Positions 4,523 through 63,402 of a stretch of 64,000 nucleotides of DNA are shown piece by piece. The translations under genes were made by a program, and so were the position numbers. Position 1 is the first letter of the stretch. Each line of letters opens with the position of its first letter. Where the stretch lies: the NCBI GenBank assembly GCA_024275165.1, contig JAJRZQ010000002.1:76679-140678 (forward strand). Direction: 5' to 3'. The DNA comes from a bacterium. GTDB lineage: Bacteria > SAR324 > XYD2-FULL-50-16. Under the pieces are notes generated by a model. It was not told the DNA's origin. It did not search any database and saw only the letters and a program-made list of their open reading frames with translations.

Positions 4523-4606
4523 AACCCGCTAACTTGTCGTTTGGTTTTTCAGAGCTTTTTTCTCTTGGCATAGCACAACGGGACGCAAGTCCATTATGGG
4601 AGGCTT

Positions 4607-6946
4607 ATGCCAAAGAAACTGATGCTCGTCAGTGTCACTGACGACGAAACCCGCATTGCAATTGTCGAAGACAATCTGCTGCAAGAGCTCTTAATCGAGC
4701 ATCAAAATAGAGAACAAAACAAAGGGAATATCTACAAGGGGCGAGTTGTCCAGGTCCAGACAGCGGTGCAGGCCGCTTTTGTGGATTATGGGCAAAAACG
4801 CCACGGCTTTTTACCTCTTTCTGAAGTGAACCCCGAGGTCATTGGCAGCAAGAAGGAAAAAAGAGGCCGCGCTCGCTTGGAAGAGGGTCAGGATGTCTTG
4901 GTTCAGGTAACCCGCGAAGAGGTCGATCATAAAGGGGCGGCCTTGACCACGAACCTATCCCTGGCGGGAAGATATATGGTCATGATGCCCCATACCGACA
5001 AGGGGGGCGTCTCCAAACGCATCAGTGATCCCGATGAGCGAGAGCGCCTTAAAGGGTTCCTGGCCGGTATCGGGCAAGAGGCGCATTCGGTCATTATCCG
5101 CACCGCGGGGATGCACCGGGATTTGAGCGAGCTGAAAAAGGACTACACCCAGGTGAAACGCCTGTGGGAAGAAATCAAATCTCGCTACGAGGCTCAGGTC
5201 AAACCCAGCTTGGTTCACGAGGAATTAGATGTCATCACCCGCAGCTTGCGTGACTACTACAATGAAGAGATTGACGAGGTTTGGGTCGACCAGCCCGAAT
5301 CCTTCCAAAAGGTGCTGGCCTTTTTAAAGGAAAACGCCCCCCGGCGGCAAAAAGACCTAAAGCTTTTTGTCGGGGATCGCAGCCTGTTTGCGACCTACAA
5401 TATCGAAAAACAGGTAGAGCAGTTGACCAGCCGCAAGGTCAAGCTGCGTTCTGGCGGCTCTATCGTGATCGACCAAACCGAGGCCTTAGTGGCCATTGAT
5501 GTGAATTCGGGCCGCTCCAACCAAGAATCCAATGTGGAAAACACGGCCCTGCGCACCAACCTGGAGGCCGCCGCGGAGGTGGCCCGGCAGTTGCGCTTGC
5601 GTAATTTAGGCGGGATCATCGTGGTTGATTTTATCGACATGGATAAAGCTTCTTCGAAAGCAGAGGTGGAGGCGGTAATGGCCGAAGCCTTTGAAAGGGA
5701 CCGGGCGCAGAATAAAATCGGGCACATCTCTGAATTCGGCTTGATGGAAATCAGCCGTCAGCGGATGGCCCAACGGATTTCCAGCGTGATTGAATCCGAG
5801 TGCCCCTTTTGTCAGGGCAAGGGCATGGTGCCCTCCTTGTTGGCTAGCGCCAATCTGATTTTGCGCACGATCCGTGAATACGCCGCCAAGGGCGGGGTCT
5901 CCTCGATTTCGGGCGAGCTTCCCCTAGAGGTGGCCAACCACTTGCTCAACGAACGGCGGCAGTTTTTGATGGATCTTGAGATGGAATTTGGGATCATCAT
6001 TTCTTTGCTCGGCAATCCGGCGCTGTTTATTTTTGATGAGCGCAACTTAAAGGTTTTCAATGAAGAAGGGCAGGTGATTTCTTCGGGCGTGGTCGGGGGC
6101 AGCGGTAGCCGTCGCCGTGGTCGTCGTGGTCGCCGTAGAGAAGAAGAGCCAGAGGTGGCCAAAGAGTCGGAGGAAGTAGATGAAGAAAGCCTCAGCCAAG
6201 AAGAGGAAAGCAGTGAAGAGGCAGACCGCCCCAAAAAGCACCGTAGGAGAAAACGCCGCCGTCGAGGGGAGCGCGAGCAGGAGGAAGGGGTAGAACTCGA
6301 ACTCGAAGCAACGGCAACTGCCGAGGGCGAACCCGAAGCCCTAGAGGAAGAACCGCCCACTCCGAAGCGCGAGCGGCAAACAGCCTTGAAGGAAGAAGAG
6401 GAGGAGGACGATTCCTTTTATGCCGGCTTTGCCAACGAACAGGCCCCCATTCATCCGGGGTGTCTTTTTCCGGAGGTTCGTGAAATTGATGATGTCTTTC
6501 GTCAAGAGGTAGCGGAGTCCTTTTATCAAAGATTGAGGGGGAAAGCCAAGGGGCAGCCCCCCAGGCGGATTGGAGAGCGGTTTTTATGGCGCGCCGTACC
6601 CGCGTCTCTAAAGGCGCGGGAAGAGGCTCCGGCTAAGGGAAAAAAGTCGCCTTCCCAGGGGGAGGAAGAAAGCCCGAAACCTCCGAAAAAAAGAGCGACA
6701 AAGGCCGCGACTAAAAAGAAGGAAACGCTTCCAGAGGATCAAACCCAACCCGAGGCGCAGGCAAAGCCCAAGCGAGCCCCCAGGAAAAAGGCCGTCGCGG
6801 TGAAAGCAGCCCCAGAGGGGGAGGAAAAACCCAAGCGAGCCCCCAGGAAAAAGGCCGTCGCGGTGAAAGCAGCCCCAGAGGGGGAGGAAAAACCCAAGCG
6901 AGCCCCCAGGAAAAAGGCCGCTGCCAAAGGGGAAAAGAAGGAGTGA
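4607..6946 (+). CDS. ribonuclease E/G family endoribonuclease with long low-complexity basic/acidic C-terminal tail
   Basis: N-terminal S1 + RNase E/G catalytic core (MLVSVTDDETRIAIVED..., DQTEALVAIDVNSG), zinc-link CPFCQGKG; tail with E/S-rich and K/P/A-rich repeats. Confidence 0.85.
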   Translation: MPKKLMLVSVTDDETRIAIVEDNLLQELLIEHQNREQNKGNIYKGRVVQVQTAVQAAFVDYGQKRHGFLPLSEVNPEVIGSKKEKRGRARLEEGQDVLVQVTREEVDHKGAALTTNLSLAGRYMVMMPHTDKGGVSKRISDPDERERLKGFLAGIGQEAHSVIIRTAGMHRDLSELKKDYTQVKRLWEEIKSRYEAQVKPSLVHEELDVITRSLRDYYNEEIDEVWVDQPESFQKVLAFLKENAPRRQKDLKLFVGDRSLFATYNIEKQVEQLTSRKVKLRSGGSIVIDQTEALVAIDVNSGRSNQESNVENTALRTNLEAAAEVARQLRLRNLGGIIVVDFIDMDKASSKAEVEAVMAEAFERDRAQNKIGHISEFGLMEISRQRMAQRISSVIESECPFCQGKGMVPSLLASANLILRTIREYAAKGGVSSISGELPLEVANHLLNERRQFLMDLEMEFGIIISLLGNPALFIFDERNLKVFNEEGQVISSGVVGGSGSRRRGRRGRRREEEPEVAKESEEVDEESLSQEEESSEEADRPKKHRRRKRRRRGEREQEEGVELELEATATAEGEPEALEEEPPTPKRERQTALKEEEEEDDSFYAGFANEQAPIHPGCLFPEVREIDDVFRQEVAESFYQRLRGKAKGQPPRRIGERFLWRAVPASLKAREEAPAKGKKSPSQGEEESPKPPKKRATKAATKKKETLPEDQTQPEAQAKPKRAPRKKAVAVKAAPEGEEKPKRAPRKKAVAVKAAPEGEEKPKRAPRKKAAAKGEKKE
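6767..6925 (+). repeat. three tandem 63-bp repeats inside the RNase E/G tail encoding KPKRAPRKKAVAVKAAPEGEE
   Basis: unit 'cccaagcgagcccccaggaaaaaggccgtcgcggtgaaagcagccccagagggggaggaaaaa' starts at 6767, 6830, 6893 (third copy diverges). Confidence 0.9.
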
Positions 6947-8762: not shown

Positions 8763-8794
8763 TCTAAGATGAAGGCAAGCGCGGGGTTTTTTAC

Positions 8795-9002
8795 GGAAAC
8801 TCTGAAAACGCAGAGGTTCCCAGCAAGGCAGGGATGCCTGGCCAACTCAAAAAGCGCGACTTCTTGATTCGCGTTGGGATTGTGGATTTCATTCCCCCCC
8901 GAAAAGACCGAAAAACTCAATGCGCCCCGGGGGCTATAATCAGCCCGAAGGGCACGAGCCTACCGCTTGAACAAGCGGTAGGCAAGGAGTTTTTCAGAGG
9001 TT
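8795..9002 (+). repeat. MITE-like repeat element copy A (hairpin termini)
   Basis: ~85-90% identical to the reverse complement of 61440-61650; begins with hairpin ggaaactctgaaaacgcagaggttcc and ends ...cctaccgcttgaacaagcggtagg...ggagtttttcagaggtt. Confidence 0.8.
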
Positions 9003-9004
9003 TT

Positions 9005-9469
9005 TTAAGTCCCCATAACCGTATGCCAAAGCTCTTCATCGACATTATCCATAAATTGGCAGCCGATCAAAAACTGGTCGCCTCGGTCCACCACCCGCCG
9101 AACCTGCATCTCAAATTCCATGACTAAAATTTCACCGGCCGCGTCGTATTTGAAGGTCGCGGTGATGAGTTGGTCTGTGTCAAAGGTGTGATCCGCAAAA
9201 AAACTCAAGCCCCCAGCAGAGTAGTCGTTTAAATCGTATGCCGATTCTTGATCCGTATGGTTGTCGATCAAGGTGATCTGACCCGTCGCCTTAAAGCGTT
9301 TGTGGGCGCGCAAGCCCTCGTAATAGGCGTCGTCTTGCTCTTCCTTGCTGGTTGGGGGAGTGGATTCAGAATCTAAAAAGGTAATAATGACTTCACTATT
9401 TTCTTCCAGCTCTAAAGAGTTGGCGAGTTGAATGCGGCCATGCGTGTAGATGCCTTTGACGGTGATCAT
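9005..9469 (-). CDS. PilZ-domain (c-di-GMP binding) protein with N-terminal DUF104-like domain
   Basis: RAHKRF (RxxxR) and DYSAGGLSF (DxSxGG) motifs. Confidence 0.65.
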   Translation of the reverse strand: MITVKGIYTHGRIQLANSLELEENSEVIITFLDSESTPPTSKEEQDDAYYEGLRAHKRFKATGQITLIDNHTDQESAYDLNDYSAGGLSFFADHTFDTDQLITATFKYDAAGEILVMEFEMQVRRVVDRGDQFLIGCQFMDNVDEELWHTVMGT

Positions 9470-20254: not shown

Positions 20255-20410
20255 ACGAGGGGTTGATGCCTTAAGGCTTTGACGGGCTCTGACTTATCCT
20301 CATGGGGGACTTACAGTTGCGGGCCAGTGAGGGATTTACACCCTGCTTCACCGTCTTGAAAAATCAAGCTAGCGGTTTTCTGGAGGGGAGTCAAACCCCT
20401 TGTCCGAAAA
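20255..20410 (-). promoter_or_regulatory. cobalamin (AdoCbl) riboswitch in 5' leader of cobS-cobU-cobT
   Basis: minus-strand sequence GGTGTAAATCCCTCACTGGCCCGCAACTGTAAG...AAGTCAGAGCCCGTC matches the conserved cobalamin riboswitch core (GGTGnnAAnTCC..CnGnCCCGCaACnGTAA) and B12-box-like AGTCAGA..CC; SD GGAGG lies immediately downstream. Confidence 0.8.
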
Positions 20411-20436
20411 AGGCTCAACCCCTAAAATAAAGTAAA

Positions 20437-20480
20437 GGAACCTCTGAAAAAGTCCATCCTTGGACTTTTTCAGCTTTGGC
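20437..20480. repeat. palindromic hairpin sharing the MITE terminal motif (ggaacctctgaaaaa)
   Basis: ggaacctctGAAAAAGTCCAtccTTGGACTTTTTCagc; first 15 nt identical to 61440-61454. Confidence 0.7.
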
Positions 20481-20608
20481 GATTAGGGAGTGAATTCTTG
20501 ATCACCCAACAAATCAATTCACTTTGTGCATTGATTTGGCGGAGCGGGCCTGCCTCGCAAGGCAACTCGGAGTTTTTCCCTCAACCTTGAATCCATTTTT
20601 TTTGAATT

Positions 20609-24868: not shown

Positions 24869-25153
24869 ATGAGTAAAGTGACGAAGGCAGACCTGATTCA
24901 GGATGTTGCCGGTAAAGTAGGATTATCTAAAACCCAAACTGAAAAAACCATTAACGCTATTTTTGAAGGCTTGACGGGGGCCATGTCCAGTCAGCGCAAA
25001 ATCGCTTTGGTCGGCTTTGGGACTTTTTACACAGCCCAGCGCGCCGCTCGTGAAGGGTTAAACCCTCAGACGGGAAAGCGGATTCAGATTCCTTCTGCTA
25101 AAGTGGCAAAGTTTCGTGTAGGGAAAAACTTGAAAGAAGCGGTGAATGCTTAA
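24869..25153 (+). CDS. hup: HU family DNA-binding protein
   Basis: MSKVTKADLIQDVAGK...INAIFEG...GFGTF...R.AREGLNPQTG..I.IPS motif pattern; RBS gagagg. Confidence 0.9.
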   Translation: MSKVTKADLIQDVAGKVGLSKTQTEKTINAIFEGLTGAMSSQRKIALVGFGTFYTAQRAAREGLNPQTGKRIQIPSAKVAKFRVGKNLKEAVNA

Positions 25154-25354
25154 TAGAGTTTTGAAAAATTCCCACTTACCTTTGATAAAGAAGAGAGTTG
25201 TATCCCCTTTCTGAGTCTGTTGGTGGGGGGGAATCTATTTTTAAGTCCAATGAAGTTGAAATTAAAAGAGGATGGGAAATAAAATTTTCTATCCTCTTGC
25301 AAATCAAAACGACTCATTTTTGGATTGGGCAACCCCTCTCTGGGTTGCCTAGAA

Positions 25355-25385
25355 ACCTCTGCATACTCAGAGGTTCCTCAATTGA
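25355..25385. repeat. isolated hairpin related to the MITE 5' terminus
   Basis: gaaacctctg-catact-cagaggttcc, cf. ggaaactctg-aaaacg-cagaggttcc at 8795. Confidence 0.55.
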
Positions 25386-25481: not shown

Positions 25482-26534
25482 TTAGGCCTTTGGTTTTGGG
25501 TAAAGCTGCGCCTTTTTTACCCTCGGTGTTTTTTGTACTTGGGCGGCGGCCTGTTTAGTTGAGCTGATTTTTAGAAGCCTCGACCCGGCTTTAGGTAGGG
25601 AGGGGAGTTCCGCCTTGTTGAAGCGGGCTTTGAAGCTCGATTTGACCGGGGTGGCCAAGAGGGGTGAGCTGACCTTTAAGGCTCGTGGCAAGAGGGTAAA
25701 ACTGGCGGGGAGGTGCCCGATTTCTACCCCATCGGCAATGAGAGCGTGTTCTTCTCCAACGGCGCGGACTTCCAATTGAGAAAATTGCTGGGTATAAACC
25801 TCTGCGTCGTTGCCCTCGCTGAAGAGTTGTCTTAAGCTTTGCGCTGTGAACGATTGAGTCTGGTTGATTTGATAATAGCGAAATTTATGCTGAAACCCGC
25901 GTTGGATCTCGCATAGTTGGGGCCCATGGGTTACTTGGCTGCCGAGTAAAATGACGGCAAAGAGGTAAGCCCCATTGTAGACCACTTTGTGCTCTGTCAT
26001 TAAGCTGATTTGGCTTAAGCTTTTGGGTGCGTTGAAGCCCCTGGCAAAGAGCAATCGGCCTAAGACCCCTTGAAGCAGGCGGGGTAATTTGGGCTGAGGC
26101 AGACGCAGGAGGATATCGTTTAAAACCAACCAACTTTGTGGGCCTCCACTGAAATCAGTGCAATGACAGCGCACTAAGCTCATCATAATGTGGTTTTTAC
26201 TGCGCAATAAGGCTAAGAGCGATTTGTCGTCTGGGGGGTAGTTTAACCCCTGGCAAAGGGCAGAATCCCCTTCGCTGGGCAAAAAGGTGACCAAGACCCC
26301 CTCGTTGGCCAGGGGGGGGTAGATTAAGTTGATCACCCGAGAACAACCCGCATCAGTGCCGACAATCATCACTCGGTCGAGCTTTGGGGGGAGGTCGATG
26401 GAACCGGCGGAGGAATCGACAAAAATCATCTCCGCCTCTGGCATCGCGCTTAGAAAGCTTGCTTGATGCCTGCGCCAGAAATTCGTGGTCTTGGGGCAGC
26501 GTAGCGAGTCGATAATAAAGAGTTGCTGGGTCAT
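25482..26534 (-). CDS. hypothetical protein, weak resemblance to DAGK/YegS lipid-kinase catalytic domain, Lys-rich C-terminal tail
   Basis: LFIIDS...VMIVGTDAGCSRVINLI loosely resembles the NP..G / GGDGT lipid-kinase pattern; tail KTPRVKKAQLYPKPKA. Confidence 0.35.
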   Translation of the reverse strand: MTQQLFIIDSLRCPKTTNFWRRHQASFLSAMPEAEMIFVDSSAGSIDLPPKLDRVMIVGTDAGCSRVINLIYPPLANEGVLVTFLPSEGDSALCQGLNYPPDDKSLLALLRSKNHIMMSLVRCHCTDFSGGPQSWLVLNDILLRLPQPKLPRLLQGVLGRLLFARGFNAPKSLSQISLMTEHKVVYNGAYLFAVILLGSQVTHGPQLCEIQRGFQHKFRYYQINQTQSFTAQSLRQLFSEGNDAEVYTQQFSQLEVRAVGEEHALIADGVEIGHLPASFTLLPRALKVSSPLLATPVKSSFKARFNKAELPSLPKAGSRLLKISSTKQAAAQVQKTPRVKKAQLYPKPKA

Positions 26535-50465: not shown

Positions 50466-50467
50466 AA

Positions 50468-50716
50468 CTAGATTTTTACCTTTTTGAGCGGTTTGGGGTT
50501 GGGCTTAAGACGATAAATTTTTTCTAGGCCCGCGAGTTGTTTGGGTTTTTGTTGGCAAGCATTGCAGAGGGCGACCCACTGTTCGGCGTGGTACCAGATA
50601 CGAAAGTAGTCGTCGGGGGCGACCATTTGAAAGACACAGCGCTCCACGCTGCCTTGAGCGGTGCAATGTTGTTTGTACTTGGTGAGGAGTTTTAAATAGA
50701 TCTTTTTGTTTCCCAT
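50468..50716 (-). CDS. small Cys-containing hypothetical protein
   Basis: 82 aa ORF, CxxC-like pairs (C...C, CNAC). Confidence 0.35.
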   Translation of the reverse strand: MGNKKIYLKLLTKYKQHCTAQGSVERCVFQMVAPDDYFRIWYHAEQWVALCNACQQKPKQLAGLEKIYRLKPNPKPLKKVKI

Positions 50717-51236
50717 AGGGGTATATATTGAGGGCGGAGCAGAGCTTTTTTTATGTTTCCTCCTATAAAATAGCTCAACTTGGGCCGGGAGACCAAGAAA
50801 TAATTGGTCAAAATATCAACAGGAACAGGAGGAGGTGTAGGTGGATAATGCCTATGATAACAAATTATTACAATAAAACCCTAGGTAAATATACAAAACA
50901 AATACCCTAGGGGGAACACCGGATTGAAAAAAAATCGTCTTCAGGAATCAGGAAGTGAATTTCTAATCGCTAAACAAATCAATGTATTTTGCTTTTGATT
51001 TGGGGTTGATTCGGTACCCATAGTATTTCTATGCAAGCTGGCCTGATCTAGGAGAAGCCTACAGCCCGCTACCGCGGTCGGCGGGGCGGCTCGCGCGGGC
51101 GCTCGCCGGGTATAAGCGCCCCCGCAATTTTAATATGCTCCGCAGGCCGGGGCTGAAAGCCCCAGACCCCAGTGGTTTTTTAGATTGGGAACCATACACA
51201 CGCCGGATTTATAAACCATCTCTGGCCTTGCAAGAA

Positions 51237-51257
51237 ACTCTGAGTTTTTCAGAGTTG
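51237..51257. repeat. hairpin aactctga-gtttt-tcagagtt related to the repeat family; possible fliQ terminator
   Basis: perfect 8-bp inverted repeat immediately 3' of fliQ. Confidence 0.5.
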
Positions 51258-51259
51258 CT

Positions 51260-57504: not shown

Positions 57505-57656
57505 TTCCCTCTGGATTTCTTGATTTTAGAAGTACTGAAAAATTCATTTCTCGACCCTGAAAAATTGAATAAGTCTAAGTATGGACTGGTGTAGAGGTTT
57601 TTTCCTTTCAAACGAAAGGGCCTAGTGTGGCCCCTTTTCTATTTCGCGGTTAAGTC

Positions 57657-61439: not shown

Positions 61440-61650
61440 GGAACCTCTGAAAAACTCCCTGCCTACCGCTTGTTCAAGCGGTAGGTTCGTGCCCTGCGGG
61501 CTGATGATAGCCCTTGGGGCGCGTCAAATTTTTCCGTCTTTTTGGTGGGGAATGAAATCCACAATCCCAACGCGAATCCATAAGTCGCGCTTTTTGCTTT
61601 GGCAAGGCATCCCTGCCTTGCGGGGAAACTCCGCGTTTTTCAGAGTTTCC
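61440..61650 (-). repeat. MITE-like repeat element copy B (inverted relative to copy A)
   Basis: reverse complement aligns to 8795-9002 over its whole length (~85-90% id) including both terminal hairpins. Confidence 0.8.
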
Positions 61651-61811
61651 TATAATTATAGGGTTGGGAATCCCGCACAAAGCGAAGTATCTTTGAAATA
61701 TAATTTATTGTTATCATTATATTATTCAAAAAAATTGGAGAAAGGGCTCAAGTTTCTCTCCCCCATGCCGAAAGAGAGTCAAGCCTTCGTAAGGAGGTGA
61801 AAAAAAGTTAC

Positions 61812-61838
61812 TCAAGTTTCGGCGGTTCATGCCGATAA
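61812..61838 (+). promoter_or_regulatory. sigma-28 (FliA) promoter for flagellin
   Basis: TCAAGTTT-N11-GCCGATAA vs consensus TAAAGTTT-N11-GCCGATAA; 55 nt upstream of flagellin ATG. Confidence 0.7.
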
Positions 61839-61893: not shown

Positions 61894-62886
61894 ATGAGCT
61901 TAAAAATCAATCACAATACGGCGGCAATTAATTCCTGGAGGAATTTAAAGGCCACCGATGACGCAATGAATAAGACCTTAGAGCACTTAAGCAGTGGCAA
62001 AAAATTAAACCGCGCTTCAGACGGCCCCGCCAACATGGTCATCGCCGAGCAAATGCGCGGCCAAGTGGCCAGTTTGGAACAGGCGACCAGCAATAGCGAA
62101 ATCGCCATTTCCATGGTGCAAACCGCAGAAGGCAGCTTAAACGAAGTGAGCAATATCTTGATCCGCTTGCGCCAACTGTCGCTACACGCGGCCAACGAAG
62201 GGGCCAACGACGACAAGATGCTGGCCGCGGATCAAGCAGAGATCGACAACTTGATCAGCACTTTAGATGGAATCAGTCACCAGGCGCAGTTCGGTACCCG
62301 GATGCTCTTAGATGGTTCCAACGGAATCAGCGGGGTCGGTGTGGGCGATGGGATTCGCTTTGTCTCGGCGATTACCGAGACCGAATCGAGCCCGGCAGAC
62401 GGCTACGAGGTGGATATCACCCAAGCGGCGACCAAAGCGAGACTGGAGGGCTCCAGGCCCTTGTCAGATGAGGAGGTCAATGGGGGCAATATCCAAATCA
62501 CCCTGCACGAAGGGGGAAAAAGCCTCACCTACTATACCAAGGTAGGCGAAACCATGGAAGCGATTGTAAAAAATCTAAGCCAGCAGGCAAAGCAGAATAA
62601 TCTTAAACTGGAGTTTGGGATTACCGAAGACAAACGCATGTGGGTCGAACATTTGGAATATGGCTCGGAGCCGAGTTTCGGCGCCGTGGTCGGAGTCGCG
62701 GGCATTTTAACCGAGGAGGCGAACAACTTGGGCGAAGCCGTTCAAGGGACGGATGTCCAGGGCACCATTGGGGGCGAACTGGCCTACGGGGACGGGCAAT
62801 ATCTCACGGGGGCGAAGGGCACCAAGGCCGAGGGTCTGGTGTTGCAATATACCGGTTGGGTAAAAACCCAAATCCAATTGGATTAA
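61894..62886 (+). CDS. fliC: flagellin, N-terminal fragment (terminated by in-frame TAA)
   Basis: conserved flagellin N-domain MSLKINHNTAAINSWRNL... Confidence 0.8.
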   Translation: MSLKINHNTAAINSWRNLKATDDAMNKTLEHLSSGKKLNRASDGPANMVIAEQMRGQVASLEQATSNSEIAISMVQTAEGSLNEVSNILIRLRQLSLHAANEGANDDKMLAADQAEIDNLISTLDGISHQAQFGTRMLLDGSNGISGVGVGDGIRFVSAITETESSPADGYEVDITQAATKARLEGSRPLSDEEVNGGNIQITLHEGGKSLTYYTKVGETMEAIVKNLSQQAKQNNLKLEFGITEDKRMWVEHLEYGSEPSFGAVVGVAGILTEEANNLGEAVQGTDVQGTIGGELAYGDGQYLTGAKGTKAEGLVLQYTGWVKTQIQLD

Positions 62887-62922
62887 CAGGGCAACCCCAT
62901 CCCGGGGGAAGACGGCAAACCC

Positions 62923-63402
62923 TTGCCCCCGAAGGATAAAGCGGAAGGCGCGGTTTATGTGACCAATAACGCCCTCAATTTTCAGATCGGCCCGGCGCAG
63001 GAGCAAACCGCGCGCATCGCTTTACCCAATATCAACGCGCATTCTTTAGGGCGCGGGGTGAAGAACGATTCGGGTTATGCCAGCTTGGGCGAGATTGATG
63101 TGACCACTTTTCAAGGGGCGCAAGACGCTCTCTTGATGATTGATCAGGCGGTCCATGAAGTGACCAATGTGCGGGGCAAGTTGGGTGCTTTCCAAAAGAA
63201 TACCTTGGAGATCAACCTGAACAATCTGCGCTACTCCACAGAAAACCTCATGTCGGCAGAGAGCGAGTTGCGAGATACCGATATGGCCGCGGAGATGAGC
63301 GAGTTTACGAAACAGCAGATTCTCTTAGCAAGCGGCACCGCCATGTTGGGGCAGGCGAACCAAACGCCCAAGGCGGTATTGAATCTCTTAAACGCCCAGT
63401 AA
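62923..63402 (+). CDS. fliC: flagellin, C-terminal fragment in same frame as 61894 ORF
   Basis: conserved flagellin C-domain ...LRYSTENLMSAESELRDTDMAAEMSEFTKQQILLASGTAMLGQANQTPKAVLNLL. Confidence 0.75.
   Translation: MPPKDKAEGAVYVTNNALNFQIGPAQEQTARIALPNINAHSLGRGVKNDSGYASLGEIDVTTFQGAQDALLMIDQAVHEVTNVRGKLGAFQKNTLEINLNNLRYSTENLMSAESELRDTDMAAEMSEFTKQQILLASGTAMLGQANQTPKAVLNLLNAQ

What the first reader, a model, noticed from the sequence alone, without database searches (positions are those of the whole stretch)
8795..9002. ~210-bp MITE-like repeat present in two inverted copies (8795-9002 and 61440-61650)
The two segments are reverse complements of one another over about 208 bp at roughly 85-90% identity. 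Each begins with the hairpin ggaaactctg-N6-cagag(g/t)ttcc and ends with a second hairpin (cctaccgcttgaacaagcggtagg) followed by ggagtttttcagaggtt(cc), so the termini are themselves inverted (…ctctgaaaaa…/…tttttcagag…). Both copies are intergenic. Copy A lies between a terminator and a convergent gene; copy B lies between thiD and the flagellin sigma-28 promoter. They are not explained by any gene. The ORF-track ORFs inside them (8834..9127 and 61489..61800) are probably spurious. This looks like a non-autonomous mobile element or a structured small-RNA family.
Basis: seen in the sequence. Interest (0 to 1): 0.6.

Follow-up and report, generated by a model that had tools for sequence, protein, structure and literature searches.

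The report
Small dispersed inverted-repeat element family
The two 210-bp inverted copies are real and belong to a larger family of small, non-coding, hairpin-rich repeats scattered between genes of an uncultured SAR324-like bacterium, most likely decayed miniature transposons: a new family of an ordinary kind.

Summary
8795-9004(+) and 61440-61650(-) are 89% identical over about 209 nt (blastn E 1.6e-64), with sharp ends and unrelated flanks.

The pair is part of a family. nhmmer and a covariance model find at least six members in the 64 kb (A, B, C, D, E1, E2) and two marginal remnants. All lie between genes.

Features:
- Terminal inverted repeats GGAAMCTCTGAAAAAC / GTTTTTCAGAGGTTCC.
- No conserved ORF.
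- A short form (D, 146 nt) and a long form (A, B, C) with about 75 nt of extra hairpins in the loop of a conserved closing stem.
- AT-rich insertion contexts, two of them directly beside stop codons.

There is no Rfam match, and no hit in plasmids, phages, metagenome contigs or GTDB species genomes. The nearest relatives are SAR324-like MAGs (LeuRS 73-74% identical). They keep the gene order but lack the element at two orthologous sites and across about 70 kb.

The hairpins are kept with compensatory changes, but both strands fold equally well and no promoter is shared.

Best reading: an old, lineage-specific MITE-like family. Target-site duplications are ambiguous and no parent transposase was found. 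This is a new member of a known kind, of modest interest.

The parts
8795..9004 (+). Copy A, long form (210 nt). H1 8795-8820; H2 8823-8842; H3 8854-8874; H4 8876-8897; closing stem 8909-8918 with 8987-8995; H5 8922-8955; H6 8959-8982; right terminal repeat 8989-9004.
   Evidence: CM 227.8 bits
61440..61650 (-). Copy B, long form (211 nt), 89% identical to A. It has the best-preserved terminal inverted repeats (15/16) and is flanked by TA-repeat sequence on both sides.
   Evidence: (CM 223.8 bits)
25152..25378 (-). Copy C, a full-length but decayed and AT-richer member (39% GC). It lies between convergent genes, 104 nt after the stop of the 25482-26534(-) gene. H1 and H2 are intact, with compensatory changes.
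   Evidence: (C aligns end to end with A, E 3.6e-8)
20436..20581 (-). Copy D, short form (146 nt). It lacks the H5+H6 insert and about 6 nt of the left repeat, and has a perfect right end TTTTTCAGAGGTTCC. It lies between a PHP phosphatase gene and the cobalamin riboswitch-cobS operon.
   Evidence: CM 117.5 bits
51132..51260 (-). Copy E1. The left end with H1 and H2 is well preserved and begins 2-3 nt after the fliQ stop codon; the remainder is diverged.
   Evidence: D2; CM 28 bits, E 7.8e-7
50931..51039 (-). Copy E2, a D-like central part (H3/H4 region) with a degenerate right end. It may form one composite element with E1.
   Evidence: (CM 21.9 bits, E 5e-5)
57505..57606 (+). F, a marginal D-like remnant directly after the stop codon of the GspE/PilB-type ATPase gene.
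   Evidence: E 0.011 against D; CM 9 bits, E 0.3; weak
4540..4560 (+). Possible solo right-end remnant (GGTTTTTCAGAGCTTTT) after a small ORF.
   Evidence: could be chance

Best explanation
A and B are the two best-preserved members of a lineage-specific family of miniature inverted-repeat, non-autonomous transposable elements (MITE-like). The elements are 146-227 bp long, non-coding, and bounded by 16-19 bp terminal inverted repeats (GGAAMCTCTGAAAAAC). The inferred mechanism is that a transposase encoded elsewhere (not in this window) once bound these ends and inserted copies into AT-rich intergenic DNA, often at or next to stop codons. The family then decayed: A and B differ by 11%, and C to F are much more eroded. 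The interior is a chain of hairpins. The long form arose from the short form by about 75 nt of GC-rich hairpins (H5, H6) inserted in the loop of the closing stem GAAAAASTC/GASTTTTTC. Shown here: the repeat family, terminal repeats, lack of coding capacity, intergenic dispersal, absence in relatives, and hairpin conservation. Inferred: transposition in trans, the target preference, and any present-day effect on neighbouring transcripts such as termination or RNase processing.
For: A and B are 89% identical with unrelated flanks. Terminal inverted repeats are present, and the 16-mer with up to 3 mismatches occurs 7 times against 1.3 expected. Further members C, D, E1 and E2 were found by nhmmer and by a covariance model run with filters off, all of them intergenic. 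No frame stays open in both copies, and changes in the one shared open stretch are mostly non-synonymous. Pfam/NCBIfam scans of 39 window ORFs found no transposase or integrase. Synteny is conserved in the relatives L024, L025 and L027 (LeuRS 73-74% identical), but the ferredoxin-PilZ spacer has no element. The thiD-flagellin spacer of L001 aligns at the TATA-rich motif and both sigma-28 promoters but lacks the 211 bp. The covariance model finds nothing in about 70 kb of relatives' DNA, against 6 hits in 64 kb here. Both strands fold equally well, the antisense slightly better, as expected for a DNA palindromic element. The size, terminal repeats, intergenic AT-rich sites, stable folds and fading direct repeats match the published description of prokaryotic MITEs (PMC10969869).
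Against: No clear target-site duplication. A is flanked by TA/TA, or by TTTTTTA on both sides if its right boundary is moved. B is flanked by AT/AT or TA inside a TA repeat. C and D have none. No autonomous element with the same ends was found; only 64 kb of this genome could be read. Exact-pattern scans of GTDB genomes, JGI metagenomes and IMG/VR returned only chance hits. A and B are not AT-rich (53% GC against 51% for the window). Substitutions between A and B avoid stems (5 of 96 paired against 19 of 115 unpaired columns, p = 0.015), and 9 pairs show compensatory change. That could mean selection on structure rather than neutral decay.
Confidence: 0.7

Rival explanations
1. A family of structured RNA elements, either small RNA genes or cis-acting mRNA modules (terminator, stabiliser or RNase target), whether or not they began as mobile DNA. 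On this view the multi-hairpin fold is what selection maintains.
For: Folding is very stable (z -5.3 to -7.1). 92% of cells are paired across A-D, against 29-57% in slid controls, and 9 pairs have compensatory change against 1-3 in controls. The closing-stem pair at columns 144/217 is CG, UG, AU and GC in the four copies. A/B substitutions avoid stems. Several copies sit directly after stop codons, where they would be transcribed into 3' UTRs. Read on the + strand, B ends in a terminator-like hairpin plus T-run after thiD.
Against: There is no Rfam family at gathering or relaxed thresholds. No promoter or terminator is shared by the copies, and the flanks are unrelated. The antisense strand folds as well or better in all four copies, so no RNA strand is favoured. 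Orientation relative to neighbouring genes is mixed. Relatives that keep the same genes lack the element. Only four informative sequences were available, and the structure was derived from them. Hairpin-templated repair of DNA palindromes can mimic covariation.
Confidence: 0.2
2. A non-transposon repeat: protein-binding or recombination sites (for example an operator-like palindrome GGAAMCTCTG-N6-CAGAGKTTCC), or REP/REPIN-like elements spread by a Y1 (RAYT) enzyme or by gene conversion.
For: H1 is a 10+10 bp palindrome at the left end of A, C and E1 (3 matches against 0.18 expected). Several copies lie near motility, pilus or c-di-GMP genes (PilZ, flagellin, fliQ, GspE/PilB-like ATPase).
Against: Conservation extends about 200 nt beyond the palindrome and has defined inverted termini. 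The unit is far longer than a 20-40 nt REP, and the right end carries only half of the palindrome. No RAYT, integrase or recombinase gene is in the window. The window is rich in motility genes, so proximity to them is expected by chance. Copy D lies next to cobalamin genes.
Confidence: 0.07
3. A segmental duplication or the arms of a large invertible or composite segment: the two copies would simply bound a 52-kb region.
For: The two best copies are inverted and 52.4 kb apart.
Against: Similarity ends sharply at the element termini. Further members in the same orientation as B lie between the two copies. The genes between them are ordinary housekeeping genes, syntenic with relatives.
Confidence: 0.03

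Closest known systems
Correia repeat-enclosed elements (Neisseria MITE)
   Same: Both are small non-coding elements with terminal inverted repeats, many intergenic copies close to genes, and insertion in TA-containing sites. Transcripts fold so that the terminal repeats pair; in Neisseria that pairing is an RNase III substrate (PMC10969869). Here the 5' and 3' ends of B pair in the minimum-energy fold.
   Different: There is no sequence similarity. The terminal repeats are 16-19 bp rather than the roughly 26 bp I recall for Correia. The interior has seven helices. No IHF site or promoter was detected. The TA duplication is not demonstrated. The host is an uncultured SAR324-like lineage.
ERIC / IRU enterobacterial intergenic repeats
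   Same: Both are imperfect palindromic intergenic repeats of 100-200 bp found near the 3' ends of genes, old and decaying, with copy number varying by lineage (PMC10969869). ERIC size variants arise by internal insertions at fixed points (from memory: Wilson and Sharp 2006), like the short form D against the long forms A, B and C here.
   Different: The sequence and host are unrelated. ERIC is shared across genera, whereas this family was not found outside one genome.
RUP / IS630-mobilised MITEs (Streptococcus pneumoniae)
   Same: Both are roughly 100-200 bp with terminal repeats, AT-rich or TA targets, and presumed mobilisation in trans by an insertion sequence (from memory, and PMC10969869).
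   Different: The parent insertion sequence of RUP is known. Here no transposase was found in the window, and the rest of the genome could not be searched.
REP / REPIN-RAYT systems
   Same: Both are intergenic, palindromic, numerous, and often lie just after genes.
   Different: REP units are 20-40 nt palindromes arranged as inverted pairs and linked to a RAYT gene. This element is a 146-227 nt unit with true terminal inverted repeats, and no RAYT gene is in view.

Membership tests
MITE (prokaryotic miniature inverted-repeat transposable element; criteria as in PMC10969869) | Total length under about 500 bp with no transposase or conserved ORF | tested here: met
   Lengths are 146-227 nt. Six-frame comparison of A and B shows no frame open in both with a start codon, and changes are mostly non-synonymous.
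MITE (prokaryotic miniature inverted-repeat transposable element; criteria as in PMC10969869) | Terminal inverted repeats of about 4-30 bp | tested here: met
   B has GGAAACTCTGAAAAAC against GGAACCTCTGAAAAAC (15/16). A and D keep the right end, and C is decayed.
MITE (prokaryotic miniature inverted-repeat transposable element; criteria as in PMC10969869) | Flanking direct repeats (target-site duplication), at least in young copies | tested here: inconclusive
   A has TA/TA, or TTTTTTA on both sides with a shifted boundary. B has AT/AT or TA inside a TA repeat. C and D have none. Low-complexity flanks prevent a decision.
MITE (prokaryotic miniature inverted-repeat transposable element; criteria as in PMC10969869) | Multiple dispersed copies, mainly intergenic and in AT-rich sites | tested here: met
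   Six confident and two marginal members in 64 kb, all intergenic. Flanks are T-runs or TA repeats.
MITE (prokaryotic miniature inverted-repeat transposable element; criteria as in PMC10969869) | Presence/absence at orthologous sites (evidence of insertion) | tested here: met
   Absent from the ferredoxin-PilZ spacer in L024, L025 and L027, and from the thiD-flagellin spacer in L001, despite conserved synteny and conserved flanking motifs. Caveat: the relatives are distant (57-74% protein identity), so no exact empty site can be reconstructed.
MITE (prokaryotic miniature inverted-repeat transposable element; criteria as in PMC10969869) | A cognate autonomous insertion sequence with the same terminal repeats | not testable with these tools
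   No transposase among the 39 window ORFs scanned. The rest of the 189-kb contig and genome is not readable. The left-end pattern gave only chance hits in GTDB genomes.
Known structured RNA family (Rfam 15) | Scores above a family's gathering threshold | tested here: not met
   No hit on the whole window. Only noise at E up to 10 around A, and nothing around E.
Novel structured non-coding RNA gene | Conserved secondary structure supported by covariation on one strand | tested here: inconclusive
   92% of cells are paired and 9 pairs are compensatory, against 1-3 in slid controls. However, there are only 4 sequences, the structure was derived from them, and the antisense strand folds as well or better.
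Novel structured non-coding RNA gene | Own promoter and terminator, a discrete transcript, and conservation in related species | tested here: not met
   No promoter is shared, and only one copy has a terminator-like site. The element is absent from relatives. Expression itself cannot be tested here.
REP/REPIN | Palindromic units of 20-40 nt in inverted pairs, with an associated RAYT gene | tested here: not met
   The unit is 146-227 nt with terminal inverted repeats. The H1 palindrome occurs only at the left end. No RAYT gene is in the window.
Diversity-generating retroelement TR/VR pair | Differences confined to adenines of one copy, with a reverse transcriptase nearby | tested here: not met
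   A/B differences involve all bases. No reverse transcriptase is in the window.

The most novel reading that the evidence does not exclude
The family is not just transposon debris. It could be a lineage-specific set of structured RNA modules, possibly domesticated MITEs, whose seven-helix fold is kept by selection and which act on neighbouring transcripts: 3'-end formation, protection from or targeting by RNases, or a trans-acting small RNA family. Such a class would be absent from Rfam, in the poorly studied SAR324-like lineage.
Probability: 0.15. Interest if true: 0.5.

Novelty: new member of a known kind. Interest (0 to 1): 0.25.

Why it matters
If the reading is right, this documents a previously undescribed MITE-like repeat family in an uncultured SAR324-related bacterium. 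No matching repeat turned up in the two literature searches run here. Its density is about one copy per 10 kb in this window. Practical consequences:
- Such repeats break or mis-join metagenome assemblies.
- They create spurious ORF calls, such as 8834-9127 and 61489-61800.
- They can alter expression of adjacent genes. Here they sit against the stop codons of PilZ and fliQ, upstream of the flagellin promoters, and upstream of a cobalamin riboswitch.

The conserved hairpins make the family a reasonable small test case for whether old MITEs are kept for RNA-level roles. It does not open a new kind of biology.

Tried and rejected
- **Known RNA family:** Rfam at gathering threshold on the window and at relaxed E-values on two regions found nothing. 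There are no tRNA or tmRNA genes.
- **Coding element:** six-frame comparison rejects it.
- **More copies elsewhere:** the 22-mer core had 0 hits in GTDB genomes. The 20-mer core had 4 chance hits in JGI metagenomes. The right-end 17-mer and the left-end pattern in IMG/VR gave chance hits. The left-end H1+H2 pattern in GTDB genomes gave 11 single hits in unrelated taxa with no extended similarity, against my rough estimate of about 17 by chance. blastn against plasmids and phages found nothing.
- **Apparent relic in L024:** a resemblance between the L024 spacer and the element (TCCCAGCAGGCCAA) was tested by Smith-Waterman against shuffles and rejected, with z about 0.
- **Diversity-generating retroelement repeat pair, and arms of a 52-kb invertible segment:** both rejected.
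- **Literature:** no paper links SAR324 with MITEs, and none contains the terminal repeat sequences in a relevant context.
- **Strand assignment by G-U pairs:** uninformative, because each strand's own consensus fold shows many G-U pairs.

Full report
**1. The observation**

Reading both regions and aligning them shows that 8795-9004 on the + strand and 61440-61650 on the - strand are the same element.
- The repeat finder reports gapless arms of 198 nt at 89% complementarity.
- blastn gives 89.5% identity over 209 nt, E 1.6e-64.
- Similarity starts exactly at GGAAAC and ends at CAGAGGTT(CC). The flanks do not align. So this is not low-complexity sequence and not the edge of a larger duplication.
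In B the left end GGAAACTCTGAAAAAC matches the reverse complement of the right end, GGAACCTCTGAAAAAC, at 15 of 16 positions.

**2. It is a family, not a pair**

An nhmmer profile of A+B, and then of all members, finds further diverged copies in the same window. A covariance model built from A-D and run without filters gives six significant matches.

| Member | Coordinates | Score |
|---|---|---|
| A | 8794-9005 (+) | 227.8 bits |
| B | 61651-61439 (-) | 223.8 bits |
| C | 25378-25152 (-) | 183.3 bits |
| D | 20581-20436 (-) | 117.5 bits |
| E1 | 51260-51132 (-) | 28 bits, E 8e-7 |
| E2 | 51039-50931 (-) | 21.9 bits, E 5e-5 |

- A, B, C and D are the sequences the model was built from, so their scores are matches by construction. 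Independent support for C and D is the nhmmer search with a profile of A+B alone (E 6.6e-8 and 1.2e-6) and the single-sequence searches. E1 and E2 are the model's only new finds.
- There are also marginal remnants at 57505-57606 and about 4540-4560.
- C aligns end to end with A (E 3.6e-8) but is AT-enriched and eroded.
- D is a short form. Its closing hairpin GAAAAAGTCC-AAGGAT-GGACTTTTTC corresponds to the stem GAAAAACTC...GAGTTTTTC of A and B. In A and B that stem encloses about 75 nt of GC-rich hairpins, H5 and H6.
- All members are intergenic. The terminal 16-mer with up to 3 mismatches occurs 7 times against 1.3 expected.

**3. Context and organism**

The window is ordinary chromosome. It carries LeuRS, a methionine aminopeptidase-type M24 peptidase, RNase E/G, MMPL transporters, cobalamin salvage genes, HtpG, FliG, FliP/FliQ, a GspE/PilB-like ATPase, ThiD and flagellin. 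The 39 ORFs scanned with Pfam or NCBIfam include no transposase, integrase or reverse transcriptase.

The best LeuRS relatives are 73-74% identical MAGs, one of them labelled SAR324 cluster bacterium. The nearest ThiD, apart from the identical entry on a 189,420-bp NCBI contig, is only 57% identical. So this genome has no close sequenced relative.

Positions of the copies:
- A follows the ferredoxin gene terminator. Its right end runs straight into the TAA stop of the convergent PilZ gene.
- B is 36 nt after thiD and upstream of two sigma-28-like promoters of flagellin.
- E1 starts 2-3 nt after the fliQ stop.
- D lies about 65 nt upstream of a cobalamin riboswitch.

**4. Evidence for insertion**

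Three relatives keep the order LeuRS, M24 peptidase, RNase E/G, a 367-421 aa protein, 108-aa ferredoxin, PilZ(-), TetR, MMPL.
- Their ferredoxin-PilZ spacers (151, 385 and 325 bp) contain no element by nhmmer, by Smith-Waterman against shuffles, or by the covariance model.
- The thiD-flagellin spacer of L001 aligns with the window at a CTATA(A/T)(T/A)TATAG motif, both sigma-28 promoters and the ribosome-binding site. It lacks the 211 bp that sit directly beside that motif in the window.
- About 70 kb of relatives' DNA holds no family member, against six in 64 kb here.
- Exact-pattern scans of GTDB species genomes, JGI metagenomes and IMG/VR, and blastn against plasmids and phages, gave nothing beyond chance.

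As far as these searches can see, the family is private to this lineage.

**5. Coding or RNA?**

No reading frame is open with a start codon in both A and B. In the one stretch open in both, changes are mostly non-synonymous.

Rfam gives no match.

Evidence for a maintained structure:
- The element folds very stably, with z from -5.3 to -7.1.
- Across A-D the consensus helices are 92% paired, against 29-57% when partners are slid.
- Nine pairs show compensatory change, against 1-3 in controls. One closing-stem pair is CG, UG, AU and GC in the four copies.
- A/B substitutions avoid stems: 5 of 96 paired against 19 of 115 unpaired columns, p = 0.015.

Evidence against a dedicated RNA:
- The antisense strand folds as well or better in every copy, and yields a consensus with even more pairs.
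- No promoter or terminator is common to the copies.
- Orientation relative to neighbouring genes is mixed.
- Only four sequences inform the counts.

This pattern is what a palindromic DNA element gives. It does not single out an RNA strand.

**6. Interpretation**

The features match the published description of prokaryotic MITEs: under 500 bp, terminal inverted repeats, intergenic AT-rich sites, stable folds, and direct repeats that fade with age (PMC10969869). I therefore read the family as an old, now probably inactive, MITE-like family. It has a short and a long subfamily, and A and B are its youngest visible members.

Two defining points remain open:
- Target-site duplications are ambiguous. 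A has TA/TA or TTTTTTA, B has AT or TA within a TA repeat, and C and D have none.
- No autonomous element with matching ends could be sought, because only 64 kb of the genome is readable.

The main rival is that the hairpin chain is maintained for an RNA-level role. I put that at about 0.2. It would be decided by transcriptome data and by a genome-wide covariation test.

**7. Comparison and verdict**

In behaviour the family is closest to the Correia, ERIC and RUP type repeats, but it shares no sequence with them. It is not a REP/REPIN, a retroelement repeat pair, or the arms of a large inversion.

It is a new member of a known kind. The finding is useful for annotation and assembly of this lineage but not surprising. 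Interest 0.25.

Noticed in passing
window 20275-20370 (-): An AdoCbl-II (cobalamin) riboswitch aptamer scores 31.6 bits (E 1.5e-5), below the Rfam gathering score of 36.5, so the default scan missed it. It lies upstream of cobS-cobU-cobT. Repeat copy D lies about 65 nt upstream of it and may sit in or near the operon's promoter.
   Followed up: partly
window 61894-63402 (+), stop at 62884-62886: The flagellin gene is interrupted by an in-frame TAA in its variable central domain (...KTQIQLD*QGNPIPGEDGK...). The N- and C-terminal flagellin domains are therefore called as two ORFs in the same frame. This could be a nonsense mutation or pseudogene, an assembly error, or read-through; which one was not resolved.
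   Followed up: partly
window 6749-6937 (+): Three tandem 63-nt repeats (92% and 71% identical to the first) lie inside the C-terminal part of the RNase E/G gene (ORF 4607-6946). They encode a repeated proline/lysine/alanine-rich segment.
   Followed up: no
L001 2146-2232: In the distant relative, the thiD-flagellin spacer has two copies of CTATATATATAGTAT bracketing about 55 nt. This could be the footprint or duplication of a different small insertion at the same TA-rich spot where copy B sits in the window.
   Followed up: no
window 50466-51259: An unusually long (about 800 bp) non-coding stretch follows fliQ, where fliR would be expected. It holds E1, a GC-rich hairpin segment (about 51040-51131), E2 and then a small 81-codon ORF (50507-50752, - strand). 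There is no Rfam match.
   Followed up: partly
window 61760-61838 (+): Two tandem sigma-28-type promoters (CTCAAGTTT-N11-GCCGAAAG and TCAAGTTT-N11-GCCGATAA) lie upstream of flagellin. Both are conserved in the 57%-identity relative L001.
   Followed up: partly
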